Assembly: GCF_003790525.1 (NCBI RefSeq)
Contig: NZ_CP033635.1
DNA: 64,000 nucleotides
Strand: one strand, 5' to 3'
DNA from: Escherichia coli
GTDB taxonomy: Bacteria > Pseudomonadota > Gammaproteobacteria > Enterobacterales > Enterobacteriaceae
Position numbers: made by a program. Shown here piece after piece: positions 14,501-17,500 of this stretch (positions are counted from its first letter, which is position 1; every line of letters begins with the position of its first letter).

Positions 14501-17500
14501 TCGGTTACTGATATATTTTCCTGCATAGATTTAACCGGCCATCTGAGATGGCCGACAGGTTAACATAATTACAGCCATTTAGGGCCACGCGCTTATCCCG
14601 CGGGTGAAAACGCATCTATCACCTTGTGATCGACACCTTCATTCTCCCCCGCCAGTTCGGCACTGAGCTTCGCCATAAACTCGACTAAAAAATGCGCGTT
14701 GTGCTGCGCCAGCTGCTTGCCTCTTGCGGTTTGCATGGTTTGCGGTAGCTTCAGCAACTTAGTCTGGAAATGATCCAGCGCGTAGCGTTTATCATCAAGC
14801 GGGCGATGCTGTGCGAACGGATCTTCACCATCAAACAGCGCCACGCCCAATGCCCCTGAAACGGCAAACACGCGCGCCAGGCCAATCGCCCCCAGGGCTT
14901 CCAGCCGATCCGCATCCTGGACGATTTTAGCTTCCGTTGTTAAGGGGGCGATTTGCGCGCTGAAACTGTGAGCGGCAATGGCATGACAAACGGCCTCGAT
15001 TTTCTCCGCCGGAAATTGCTCGAACTCTTCACGGAGCAGGCGACGCGTCTCTTCTGCCGCCAGGATTGAAGAACGCTGCCTTTGCGGATGATTTTTCGCC
15101 AGGCTCACAATATCGTGAAAATAACAGGCGGTTAAAATCACCAGCATATCGACATCGTCATCTGCCGCCAGCTTCTGTGCCGTAGCCCAGACGCGGCGAA
15201 AATGACACACGTCATGGGCCGCGTCCTGGTGCTGATGATGGTTTTTCAACCAGTTTTCGAACTGTGCCTGCCAGTGTTGTAAGTCCATACGCGCTCCGTT
15301 GCCAAAGAGTCGCCACCTTAGCAGTTTTTATTCATAGCGTCTGCTACGTGCGGGACGAGGTCGGGTGTACCAGGCAATGCTGCCTAACAATGCCCCGACC
15401 AGAGCCATAAATAAAAATCCGACCAGTGCCCCTAACCACTTTCCCGCGGTAGAGCCTAAATCGCTTTCAAATCCCGACACCGGGGCATCGGGGATCCGGC
15501 TCATCACCCAGATGTAACGCGCCATTGCCCAGACGAAATAGCCACACCATGTATAGAAAGCCCACAAAGCCAGTTTGCCACCAGGGCTGCGAGAGAGTCT
15601 CTCTTCCATCTTTGTCGAACCGTATTCCATTTTGAGATAACCCGGAAAATTCAGACTTAGTACTATTATGTGATAAAAGTCACATTTTTCCACATTGGAT
15701 GAGCCAGTCAAGACTCACTCATTTTTTGAACAAATAGATAATTTTTGCGCAACGGCAGTGAATACAGGAAAAATCGTTTTGAGCGATTTTATTTATCTTT
15801 GAGATCGGCTTTATTAATTCATTTAATCAATATATTAGCACTGAATACAATTATACCTTTTTATTTTTCTGTGTCATGATGCCTCCGTTATTAGCCTTTT
15901 ATCGTCTTGTTTATATTTTTTGGGCCGGCATGATGCCGGCTTTTTTTTATGCCTTCATTAATGTGCGCGTGATCACACCAGCCGTTTGGCACAACAATCA
16001 TTGATACCCCCTATGCTTCCGCTCAACTCATAACATATTGATATACATTTATAATTTTCATGAATATTTATATTTAGAATTCATAATCCTGAATTATATT
16101 AAATAGATTAGAAACATTTTGAAATCTTTTAAATACATTTGTTACATGTAATCTTTAAAATAAAATGAACTTCATAGAATAGTATCCAAATGTGCTTTTT
16201 TTTTGGATAACGGCACTTATTGATATATTCATGAAGATTATAATCACAAGGGAATACATAATGAAAAGAAAAGTTCTGGCAATGCTGGTCCCGGCGTTAT
16301 TAGTTGCTGGCGCAGCAAATGCGGCTGAAATTTATAATAAAAATGGCAATAAACTGGATCTGTACGGAAAAGTTGATGCTCGTCATACTTTTTCCGATAA
16401 CCCTGGCGATGACGGCGATGAAACTATCATCGAGTTAGGCTTCAAAGGTGAGACCCAAATTACAGATCAGTTAACTGGTTATGGTCAAGCACTGACCAAA
16501 ACAAAGGCTAGCGACACTGAAGGTTCTGATAATACTTATGTCAAACTTGCTTTTGCAGGTCTGAAGTTCGGCGAGATGGGCTCCTTTGACTATGGTCGTA
16601 ACTATGGTGTGATTTACGACGTTGAAGCCTGGACAGATATGCTTCCTGTATTCGGCGGCGACTCCTATACCTGGACTGATAACTTCATGGCAGGCCGTGC
16701 AAATGGGGTAGCTACTTACCGCAATAGTGATTTCTTCGGTCTGGTGGAAGGTCTGAACTTTGCATTGCAGTATCAAGGTAACAACGAAGGCAGCAATGCA
16801 GGAGAAGATCAAGAAGGTACTAAAAATGGTCACGAAGACGTTCGCTTCCAGAACGGTGATGGTTTTGGTCTTTCCACTTCATATGACTTTGACTTCGGTT
16901 TGAGCTTAGGTGCCGCTTACTCAAACTCTGACCGTACCAATTCTCAAGTAGCTCTTGGCGGGTATCACTACAATGAATACAGCAAATTTGCTGGTGGTGA
17001 TACAGCTGAAGCATGGACATTTGGTGCAAAATACGACGCCAACAATGTTTATCTTGCAATGATGTATGCTGAAACCCGCAATATGACACCATATGGTAAT
17101 GTGGGTATCGCAAATAAAACCCAGAACTTTGAAGCTGTAGCACAGTATCAGTTCGATTTTGGTCTGCGCCCATCTCTTGCATATGTTTATTCAAAAGGCA
17201 AAGACCTCGGCGGTAACGACTATAACAACAATGGTCATCAAGAGTATGTTGATCAGGATCTGGTCAACTATGTTGAAATTGGAGCGACCTACTATTTCAA
17301 TAAGAACTTCTCAACATATGTTGACTATAAAATAAACTTGTTGGATAAAGATGACGATTTCTATGACAACAATGGCATCGCAACAGATGACGTTGTTGGT
17401 GTGGGCTTAGTCTACCAGTTCTAATCAGCCAACGCGCCGCGGCGTGTTACTGTAAAACTTAACACTAGCCTGAGTTCGTCCCTCATCGAACTCAGGCTTT

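What the first reader, a model, noticed from the sequence alone, without database searches (positions are those of the whole stretch)
15870..15948. Orphan plus-strand terminator between yedR and yedS
GCCGGC-ATGAT-GCCGGC followed by T8 is a textbook intrinsic terminator on the plus strand, but no annotated plus-strand gene precedes it. A 42-codon hydrophobic ORF (MMPPLLAFYRLVYIFWAG...) overlaps it without a convincing RBS. It could end a small RNA or act as an attenuator for the porin gene.
Basis: seen in the sequence. Interest (0 to 1): 0.25.

Follow-up and report, generated by a model that had tools for sequence, protein, structure and literature searches.

The report
Terminator of known sRNA RseX
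The "orphan" terminator is the 3' end of RseX, a 91-nucleotide E. coli regulatory RNA known since 2002-2006; it looked orphan only because most genome annotations omit the gene, so the finding is real but ordinary.

Summary
This is one of only two terminators of that strength in the 64-kb window; the other ends DsrA. It is not orphan. Window 15858-15948 (+) is the small-RNA gene rseX (b4603). It gives a full-length Rfam RF01401 hit (96.7 bits against a cut-off of 50). It matches the annotated K-12 gene at 89 of 91 bases without gaps. It lies in the same place, between drpB (yedR) and yedS.

Published work shows RseX is an Hfq-dependent sRNA that represses ompA and ompC. It is silenced by H-NS and appears as a ~91-nt band in hns mutants. 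Its terminator region alone, through the terminator loop, represses fepA.

The 42-codon ORF is a chance ORF. It has no ribosome-binding site, is frameshifted or cut to 18 codons in most orthologues, and lacks a start codon in Citrobacter. The attenuator idea finds no support: the hairpin forms with probability above 0.99, nothing competes with it, and a conserved, experimentally bound CRP site lies between it and yedS.

NCBI's automatic annotation (PGAP) leaves rseX out of non-K-12 genomes, which explains the "orphan" impression. Verdict: already known, low interest.

The parts
15823..15828 (+). Probable -35 hexamer of the rseX promoter (TTAATC, 3 of 6 matches, 17-nt spacer)
   Evidence: My reading of the sequence relative to the annotated +1. 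It is too weak for the consensus scan to report. PMC8313858 reports a sigma-70 promoter supported by 5' RACE and an H-NS motif at -42 to -32. The hexamer assignment is inferred.
15846..15851 (+). Probable -10 hexamer of the rseX promoter (TACAAT, 5 of 6 matches), ending 6 nt before +1
   Evidence: Sequence. Mostly conserved in Escherichia orthologues: TACAAT, TACGAT, TACCAT or TAAAAT. Inferred, not mapped here.
15858..15948 (+). rseX gene, encoding the 91-nt Hfq-dependent small RNA RseX
   Evidence: Rfam RF01401 at 15858..15947: 96.7 bits against a gathering score of 50, model positions 1-94 of 94, E = 8.5e-14 (repeated on the whole window). The K-12 ncRNA rseX (b4603, 2033649..2033739) aligns without gaps, with 2 substitutions at 15866 and 15883.
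15870..15902 (+). Conserved single-stranded core (RseX nt 13-45), the probable target-pairing region
   Evidence: 93% mean column identity across 12 orthologues. CUGUGUCAU and CGUUAUUAGCCUUUUAUCGUC are nearly invariant, even in Citrobacter amalonaticus. Nt 19-45 are predicted to pair with the Shine-Dalgarno regions of ompA (-23..-4, -19.3 kcal/mol, 10 of 1000 shuffles as good) and ompC (-28..-5, -19.3 kcal/mol, 7 of 1000). Covariation does not support the weak 5' stem-loop in this region.
15903..15921 (+). U-rich linker just upstream of the hairpin (UUGUUUAUAUUUUUU), the upstream half of a typical Hfq-binding module
   Evidence: Sequence. It tolerates 1-nt length changes in the U runs among orthologues. 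The Hfq-module reading comes from established knowledge of sRNA 3' ends and was not tested here.
15922..15942 (+). Terminator hairpin: core GCCGGC 15924-15929 with GCCGGC 15935-15940; loop AUGAU, or UGA if A15930 pairs with U15934
   Evidence: RNAalifold on 12 orthologues gives it as the only consensus helix: 8 pairs, with one compensatory G-C to A-U change in C. amalonaticus. The published RseX+52 fragment (window 15909-15948) represses fepA 23-fold, and a terminator-loop mutant loses that effect (PMC11979758).
15941..15948 (+). U8 tract: the termination site and the 3' poly-U tail
   Evidence: Sequence. Orthologues have 7 or 8 U. The annotated K-12 3' end maps to 15948.

Best explanation
The hairpin plus U8 at 15922-15948 is the Rho-independent terminator of the known small-RNA gene rseX (window 15858-15948, + strand). 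RseX is transcribed from a weak sigma-70 promoter just upstream. That promoter sits in an AT-rich intergenic island silenced by H-NS, so the RNA is nearly undetectable in wild-type cells. Transcription stops at the U tract and gives a 91-nt RNA. The 3' module (U-rich linker, G+C-rich hairpin, poly-U tail) has three roles. It defines the 3' end. It is the expected Hfq-binding platform. According to a 2024 study, it also carries regulatory activity of its own, through the terminator loop, against fepA. The conserved single-stranded core (nt 13-45) base-pairs across the ribosome-binding sites of ompA and ompC and lowers those outer-membrane proteins. Shown here: the identity, the boundaries, the structure, the conservation and the predicted pairing. 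Taken from the literature: the 5' end, Hfq dependence, ompA/ompC/fepA repression and H-NS silencing. Inferred: the exact promoter hexamers and the Hfq-module reading.
For: Full-length Rfam rseX hit at 96.7 bits against a cut-off of 50. 89 of 91 bases match the annotated K-12 rseX without gaps, in the same drpB-rseX-yedS position. Rfam rseX hits above threshold in five other Escherichia lineages and in Citrobacter amalonaticus, where the yedJ-drpB-rseX-porin order is kept. The terminator is the only consensus helix, with one compensatory change, and forms with probability above 0.99. The region is present in 4898 of 5426 complete E. coli genomes. The core is predicted to pair with the ompA and ompC Shine-Dalgarno regions better than about 99% of shuffles. 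The intergenic island is AT-rich, G+C 0.22-0.37 against 0.52-0.58 in the flanks, which fits H-NS silencing. Literature: prediction from a sigma-70 promoter plus terminator, 5' RACE, Hfq-dependent ompA/ompC repression, and a ~91-nt band in hns mutants (PMC8313858); a 91-nt RNA between drpB and yedS (PMC7648144); terminator-region and loop-dependent fepA repression (PMC11979758).
Against: Nothing contradicts the identification. Four caveats apply. All expression and function data come from K-12 and not from this strain. Native expression is very low unless H-NS is removed. The window allele differs at two positions, and one of them (15883, C for U) lies in the predicted pairing region, where it makes the predicted ompA/ompC duplexes slightly stronger. 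The original 2006 paper could not be read here, so its results are cited second-hand.
Confidence: 0.97

Rival explanations
1. The terminator is a transcription attenuator in a long leader of the porin gene yedS. On this view, transcripts starting at the rseX promoter either stop at the hairpin or read through into yedS.
For: Both are on the same strand, and the rseX-porin adjacency is kept across genera. PMC8313858 notes that RNA-seq signal for 'RseX and surrounding areas' rises without H-NS. Some sRNA terminators are known to be leaky (discussed in PMC8313858).
Against: The hairpin pairs have probability 0.99-1.00, and no alternative fold competes in the 91-nt RNA, in the nascent RNA or in a 249-nt upstream context. 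The stem is G+C-rich and followed by a U8 tail, so the terminator is strong. It lies 312 nt upstream of the yedS ATG (16261). In between are a conserved CRP site that binds CRP in published ChIP-seq and Footprint-seq data and AT-rich promoter-like sites at 16073-16100 and 16139-16166, so yedS probably has its own control region. K-12 keeps rseX intact although yedS is a pseudogene there. There is no conserved leader peptide.
Confidence: 0.04
2. The 42-codon hydrophobic ORF (15876..16004) encodes a small membrane protein, and the hairpin lies inside its coding sequence.
For: The ORF exists and starts with ATG. It is intact in K-12 with 3 amino-acid changes.
Against: There is no Shine-Dalgarno sequence before the ATG. 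The annotated RNA ends at 15948, 56 nt before the ORF's stop codon, so the terminated transcript cannot encode it. In the 11 comparison sequences, 1-nt length changes in U runs shift the frame in 8 (among them E. coli GN06489 and E. albertii, which shift and later return to frame) and only K-12 and E. coli strain 133 stay in frame. The frame is cut to 18 codons in 4 lineages. The first ATG is ATC in 2 E. coli strains. C. amalonaticus has no start codon at all (ATT ATC). Conservation peaks in the RNA core and the terminator and does not follow codon positions.
Confidence: 0.01
3. The hairpin is a chance palindrome or a bidirectional terminator that serves minus-strand transcription.
For: The lenient consensus scan finds about as many terminator-like sites as shuffled sequence does: 4 against 2.9 +/- 1.9 in 3 kb.
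Against: At strict criteria only two such sites exist in 128 kb of scanned strand, and both are at the 3' ends of Rfam-confirmed sRNAs. On the minus strand the hairpin is followed by CCCAAAAAATAT, with no U tract. No minus-strand gene converges on it. The hairpin is conserved, with a compensatory change, out to Citrobacter.
Confidence: 0.01

Closest known systems
RseX (rseX, b4603; Rfam RF01401), E. coli K-12
   Same: Same gene. Same position between drpB (yedR) and yedS, same length (91 nt), 89 of 91 bases identical, and an identical terminator hairpin, loop and U8 tail.
   Different: Two substitutions: 15866 (T for A, in the 5' U-rich end) and 15883 (C for T, in the variable stretch of the core). 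In this strain the neighbouring yedS is intact, whereas in K-12 it is a pseudogene.
MicA, MicC and MicF (Hfq-dependent sRNAs that repress outer-membrane protein mRNAs)
   Same: It works in the same way: a short trans-acting RNA with a single-stranded seed that pairs at the ribosome-binding site of omp mRNAs, followed by a U-rich stretch and an intrinsic terminator. The predicted RseX site on ompA (-23..-4) covers the Shine-Dalgarno region. Like micF next to ompC and micC next to ompN, rseX lies beside a porin gene. These comparisons rest on established knowledge and were not tested here.
   Different: There is no sequence family relationship: only rseX passes an Rfam threshold at this site. 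RseX is not known to be under sigma-E or OmpR control; instead it is silenced by H-NS (PMC8313858).
DsrA (window 7437..7522, minus strand)
   Same: It is the other Hfq-dependent sRNA in the window, and its terminator is the only other one of equal strength. A CRP site lies next to each of the two genes.
   Different: A different Rfam family (RF00014) with different targets.
SdsR and ArrS terminator-loop regulation of fepA
   Different: The mechanism is unresolved, because no direct pairing with fepA was detected. The RseX loop is invariant in Escherichia but reads AUUUU in C. amalonaticus.

Membership tests
rseX sRNA (Rfam RF01401 / E. coli b4603) | Covariance-model score at or above the curated gathering score, over the full model | tested here: met
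   96.7 bits against a gathering score of 50, model positions 1-94 of 94, E = 8.5e-14. The same hit appears in the whole-window scan.
rseX sRNA (Rfam RF01401 / E. coli b4603) | Orthology with the experimentally characterised K-12 gene: sequence identity and position between drpB (yedR) and yedS | tested here: met
   Gap-free alignment with 89 of 91 bases identical, and dcm-yedJ-drpB-rseX-yedS-hchA in the same order.
rseX sRNA (Rfam RF01401 / E. coli b4603) | A discrete ~91-nt primary transcript is made | not testable with these tools
   Literature only, for K-12: 5' RACE, and a ~91-nt northern band in hns mutants (PMC8313858).
rseX sRNA (Rfam RF01401 / E. coli b4603) | [quoted passage not shown] | not testable with these tools
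   Literature (PMC8313858). Supporting computation: the core is predicted to pair with the ompA and ompC Shine-Dalgarno regions, with 10 of 1000 and 7 of 1000 shuffles as good.
Rho-independent (intrinsic) terminator | Stable G+C-rich stem-loop followed immediately by a U tract | tested here: met
   9 pairs, 6 of them G-C, a 3-nt loop and U8; -14.6 kcal/mol, z = -3.1; pair probability above 0.99.
Rho-independent (intrinsic) terminator | Lies at the 3' end of a transcription unit on the same strand | tested here: met
   It coincides with the annotated 3' end of rseX and with the 3' end of the Rfam model.
Rho-independent (intrinsic) terminator | RNA polymerase actually terminates there | not testable with these tools
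   Implied by the ~91-nt band in published northern blots. No 3'-end mapping data were examined.
Hfq-binding 3' module of sRNAs | U-rich stretch just 5' of the terminator hairpin, plus a poly-U tail of 7 or more U | tested here: met
   UUGUUUAUAUUUUUU at 15903-15921, the hairpin, and U8. Orthologues have 7-8 U. The definition comes from established knowledge, and binding itself was not tested.
Transcription attenuator / regulatory leader of yedS | An alternative (anti-terminator) structure that competes with the terminator | tested here: not met
   The terminator G-C pairs have probability 0.99-1.00 in three transcript contexts, and no competing helix appears. RNAalifold finds no other consensus helix.
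Transcription attenuator / regulatory leader of yedS | Terminator inside the leader of the regulated gene, with no separate promoter in between | tested here: inconclusive
   There are 312 nt to the yedS ATG, containing a conserved CRP site with published CRP binding and two promoter-like sites. No yedS transcription start data were available.
Small-protein gene (ORF 15876..16004) | Ribosome-binding site and a reading frame conserved among orthologues | tested here: not met
   No Shine-Dalgarno sequence. Frameshifts, truncation to 18 codons and loss of the start codon occur in orthologues.

The most novel reading that the evidence does not exclude
rseX and the adjacent porin gene yedS may form a conserved porin-exchange unit. 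Both sit in one H-NS-silenced, AT-rich island next to CRP sites. When the island is derepressed, RseX would lower the major proteins OmpA and OmpC while YedS is produced, and YedS would escape RseX because its translation start region is not complementary to the RseX core. Some read-through of the RseX terminator could add to yedS transcription. The evidence here is only circumstantial: the rseX-porin adjacency is kept in Citrobacter, no pairing with yedS is predicted, the two share an AT-rich island, and RNA-seq signal is reported to rise for 'RseX and surrounding areas' without H-NS.
Probability: 0.15. Interest if true: 0.4.

Novelty: already known. Interest (0 to 1): 0.07.

Why it matters
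It matters little as a discovery. RseX was predicted in 2002, characterised in 2006, is annotated in the K-12 reference genome and has an Rfam family. The practical lesson concerns annotation. PGAP-annotated E. coli genomes leave this gene out: none of the 29 non-K-12 records listed annotates it. Strong terminators that look orphan in intergenic regions should therefore be checked against Rfam before they are treated as new.

Tried and rejected
(1) Unconstrained RNA duplex folding of full-length RseX against 100-nt target regions gave implausibly long duplexes, and the z-scores were between -2.1 and +1.3. I dropped it in favour of a core-restricted test. It also showed that the yedS ATG is at 16261, not 16262.

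(2) My hand-written structure string was mis-registered by one or two columns for the terminator helix, so its helix-3 rows are meaningless. Only the rows for helices 1 and 2 (the 5' stem-loop: no covariation, and two pairs broken in 3 and 7 of 11 distinct sequences) are used. The terminator was scored correctly by RNAalifold.

(3) The original RseX paper (Douchin et al. 2006, JBC) is not held in the library. Its results are cited through PMC8313858 and PMC7648144.

(4) Script one search failed because all loci are stored in one file. It was repeated.

(5) I considered RyhB, Esr41 and mmgR, which gave sub-threshold Rfam hits (17-23 bits against cut-offs of 41-102). Those hits match only the generic terminator, so I rejected them.

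(6) I tested whether RseX might target yedS in trans. The predicted pairing is no better than for shuffles (-7.1 kcal/mol, 805 of 1000 shuffles as good).

(7) I considered the strong minus-strand promoter-like site at 15877..15850 as the drpB promoter. The published drpB promoter maps between 15693 and 15630 instead (PMC7648144), so the site remains unexplained.

Full report
OBSERVATION. GCCGGC lies at 15924-15929, ATGAT at 15930-15934, GCCGGC at 15935-15940, and eight T at 15941-15948. The stem can extend to nine pairs (15922-15930 with 15934-15942), and the consensus scan reports it that way: 9 pairs, 6 of them G-C, a 3-nt loop, + strand. Folded alone, the 36-nt piece gives -14.6 kcal/mol, z = -3.1, and 4 of 200 shuffles fold as well. 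The lenient scan finds terminator-like sites at about the chance rate in this 3-kb stretch (4 against 2.9 +/- 1.9). A strict scan (8-pair stem, at least 6 G-C pairs, at least 7 T in the next 9 bases) finds only two sites on both strands of the 64-kb window: this one, and one at 7461..7440 on the minus strand. The 42-codon ORF at 15876..16004 is present, with the quoted translation and with no Shine-Dalgarno sequence before it.

WHAT IT IS. The flanking genes are dcm, yedJ and drpB (yedR) on the minus strand, and yedS and hchA on the plus strand. A scan of 15300-16400 against Rfam gives a full-length match to RF01401, 'rseX Hfq binding RNA', at 15858..15947 (+): 96.7 bits against a gathering score of 50, E = 8.5e-14. 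The next best hits (RyhB, Esr41, mmgR) are far below their thresholds and align only to the generic terminator. The K-12 MG1655 reference genome annotates the ncRNA rseX (b4603) at 2033649..2033739, between drpB and yedS. That gene aligns without gaps to window 15858-15948 and differs at two bases, 15866 and 15883.

WHY IT LOOKED ORPHAN. In RefSeq genomes annotated by PGAP nothing is annotated under this stretch. Of 30 records sampled across the identity range, only K-12 lists rseX. The record identical to the window (strain SMS-3-5) lists only drpB and 'porin OmpC'. The region itself is present in 4898 of 5426 complete E. coli genomes.

CONSERVATION AND STRUCTURE. A pattern scan of one genome per species recovered six loci: E. 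albertii, E. whittamii, two unnamed Escherichia species, a divergent E. coli, and Citrobacter amalonaticus. All six give rseX hits above the Rfam threshold, at 70.9-95.2 bits. In C. amalonaticus the order yedJ-drpB-rseX-porin is kept. With four divergent E. coli alleles added, the alignment shows that conservation is highest in RseX nt 13-45 (93% mean column identity) and in the terminator plus U tract (96%). It is lower in the flanks, at 74-88%. RNAalifold returns the terminator as the only consensus helix. Its eight pairs are invariant or nearly so, apart from one compensatory G-C to A-U change in C. amalonaticus. The weak 5' stem-loop of the single-sequence fold shows no covariation, and two of its pairs break in 3 and 7 of 11 distinct sequences (helices 1 and 2 only; the helix-3 rows of that call were mis-registered by me and should be ignored). 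RseX therefore consists of a conserved single-stranded core, a U-rich linker and a terminator, which is the usual build of an Hfq-dependent trans-acting sRNA.

THE SMALL ORF. Read in the frame of the window's ATG, only K-12 and E. coli strain 133 of the 11 other sequences keep the frame without a shift. In K-12 the ORF is intact at 42 codons; in strain 133 a point change stops it at 37 codons. One-nucleotide length changes in the U runs shift the frame in 8 sequences. Two of these (E. coli GN06489 and E. albertii) return to frame downstream. Four lineages stop after 18 codons. Two E. coli strains have ATC in place of the first ATG. C. amalonaticus has no start codon. In addition, the annotated RNA ends 56 nt before the ORF's stop codon. 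The ORF is a by-product of a U-rich RNA gene and is not a coding sequence.

THE ATTENUATOR IDEA. In the partition function, the six G-C pairs of the hairpin have probability 0.99-1.00. This holds in the 91-nt RNA, in the nascent RNA up to the end of the stem, and in a hypothetical 249-nt upstream transcript. No competing helix appears. The hairpin lies 312 nt upstream of the yedS ATG at 16261. Between them are two promoter-like sites and the palindrome TGTGC-GCGTGA-TCACA at 15962-15977. The half-sites of that palindrome are kept across Escherichia species while its spacer varies. This site is listed as CRP-bound in an ETEC ChIP-seq table, as CGTGATCTCGCGCACA for yedR/ETEC-specific (PMC4287617), and in an in vitro Footprint-seq table, at K-12 position 2033766 assigned to yedS (PMC12871828). 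K-12 keeps rseX although yedS is a pseudogene there. None of this excludes some read-through, but nothing supports a regulated attenuator. On the minus strand the hairpin is followed by CCCAAAAAATAT, so it is not a bidirectional terminator.

HOW IT WORKS. From the literature: RseX was predicted in 2002 from a sigma-70 promoter plus a Rho-independent terminator. Its 5' end was mapped in 2006. Overproducing it lowers OmpA and OmpC in an Hfq-dependent way and bypasses the need for RseP. It was undetectable from the chromosome until a ~91-nt band was seen in hns mutants. All of this is summarised in PMC8313858. PMC7648144 independently describes it as a 91-nt RNA between drpB and yedS. The AT-rich island seen here (G+C 0.22-0.37 at 15600-16300 against 0.52-0.58 in the flanks) fits H-NS silencing.

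From the sequence, I read the promoter as TTAATC (15823-15828), 17 nt, TACAAT (15846-15851), with +1 at 15858. The weak -35 agrees with the low expression. These hexamers are inferred.

Computation here supports the published targets. RseX nt 19-45 are predicted to pair with ompA at -23..-4 (-19.3 kcal/mol, 10 of 1000 shuffles as good) and with ompC at -28..-5 (-19.3 kcal/mol, 7 of 1000). In both cases the duplex covers the Shine-Dalgarno sequence. The start region of the neighbouring yedS does no better than chance (-7.1 kcal/mol, 805 of 1000).

The U-rich linker, the hairpin and the U8 tail match the Hfq-binding 3' module known from other sRNAs. This rests on established knowledge and was not tested here.

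PMC11979758 also reports that RseX+52, which corresponds to window 15909-15948 (only the linker and the terminator), represses fepA 23-fold. A mutation in the terminator loop abolishes the effect without lowering the RNA level. The effect needs Hfq and RNase E, and no direct pairing with fepA was detected.

COMPARISON AND VERDICT. This is the rseX gene itself and not a relative of it. The tested membership criteria are met: the Rfam threshold, orthology with b4603, and synteny. Expression and Hfq dependence can only be taken from the literature. Functionally it belongs with MicA, MicC and MicF as a repressor of outer-membrane protein mRNAs. The other terminator of equal strength in the window ends DsrA (7437..7522, minus strand; 105.2 bits). 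Novelty: already known. Interest: low. The most novel reading still open is that rseX and yedS form a conserved, H-NS-silenced and CRP-flanked porin-exchange unit, perhaps with some terminator read-through. I put that at about 15%.

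Noticed in passing
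window 15962-15977: TGTGC-GCGTGA-TCACA, a CRP-type palindrome 14 nt after the rseX terminator and about 290 nt before the yedS ATG. Its half-sites are conserved across Escherichia species while the spacer varies, and one lineage has the perfect form TGTGA-N6-TCACA. It appears as a CRP-bound site in published ETEC ChIP-seq and K-12 Footprint-seq tables. It probably belongs to the yedS control region.
   Followed up: yes
window 15669-15684: A perfect CRP palindrome, TGTGATAAAAGTCACA, inside the region where the drpB promoter was mapped (between the old GTG start at 15693 and the true ATG at 15630; PMC7648144). It is conserved in all Escherichia orthologues, and a perfect site also occurs in C. 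amalonaticus. It is listed as CRP-bound in vitro at K-12 2033477, assigned to (yedR). Whether CRP regulates drpB was not examined.
   Followed up: partly
window 15877..15850, minus strand: A sigma-70-like promoter with 11 of 12 matches (ATGACA, 16 nt, TATAAT) on the minus strand. Its -10 overlaps the rseX -10, and its -35 (TGTCAT on the + strand) lies inside the invariant RseX core. Together with the rseX promoter it would form a back-to-back divergent pair, firing towards drpB with a leader of about 210 nt. It is not the published drpB promoter. Its function is unknown. It could contribute to the conservation of the RseX core or interfere with rseX transcription.
   Followed up: partly
window 7437..7522 (minus strand) and 7602-7617: The DsrA sRNA gene (Rfam RF00014, 105.2 bits). 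Its terminator at 7461..7440 is the only other terminator in the window as strong as that of RseX. A CRP-like site, TGTGACGTGCGTCACC, lies just upstream of it and is listed as CRP-bound in vitro for dsrA/yedP.
   Followed up: partly
window 16261..17424 (+): The porin gene yedS is intact here (1164 nt, 387 aa; PGAP names it 'porin OmpC'), whereas it is a pseudogene in K-12. Other strains carry a 1059-nt 'porin' allele or a frameshifted copy, so the locus is polymorphic.
   Followed up: partly
window 15600-16300: An AT-rich island (G+C 0.22-0.37 against 0.52-0.58 in the flanking genes) covers the whole drpB-yedS intergenic region, and yedS itself is also low in G+C at 0.37-0.48. This fits the reported H-NS silencing and a suggested foreign origin (PMC8313858).
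   Followed up: partly
window 15328..15630 (minus strand, drpB): Annotations disagree on the drpB start codon. K-12 uses the experimentally supported ATG at 15630 (303 nt, 100 aa). PGAP records use a later ATG at 15609 (282 nt). In strain 133, drpB and the porin gene are both annotated as frameshifted.
   Followed up: no
E. coli genome search, hit H45 (NZ_OX460316.1): About 10% of complete E. coli genomes (528 of 5426) give no match to the rseX region. In one strain only the first 56 nt of the 241-nt query match, which suggests a deletion or insertion breakpoint just upstream of rseX. What replaces the locus was not examined.
   Followed up: no
window 25651-25737, 26729-26801, 40209-40281, 42030-42102, 44439-44511: Five tRNA genes. 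Four give identical scores (72.6 bits), which suggests repeated copies of one tRNA, probably the asn tRNA genes of this chromosomal region. The same pair of tRNA scores appears in the Escherichia sp. E1V33 and C. amalonaticus loci.
   Followed up: no
drpB-yedS intergenic region (window about 15631-16260): A 2024 paper on host- and niche-informative E. coli biomarkers mentions yedS 113 times (PMC11267920), which suggests that this variable intergenic region is used for microbial source tracking. The paper was not read.
   Followed up: no
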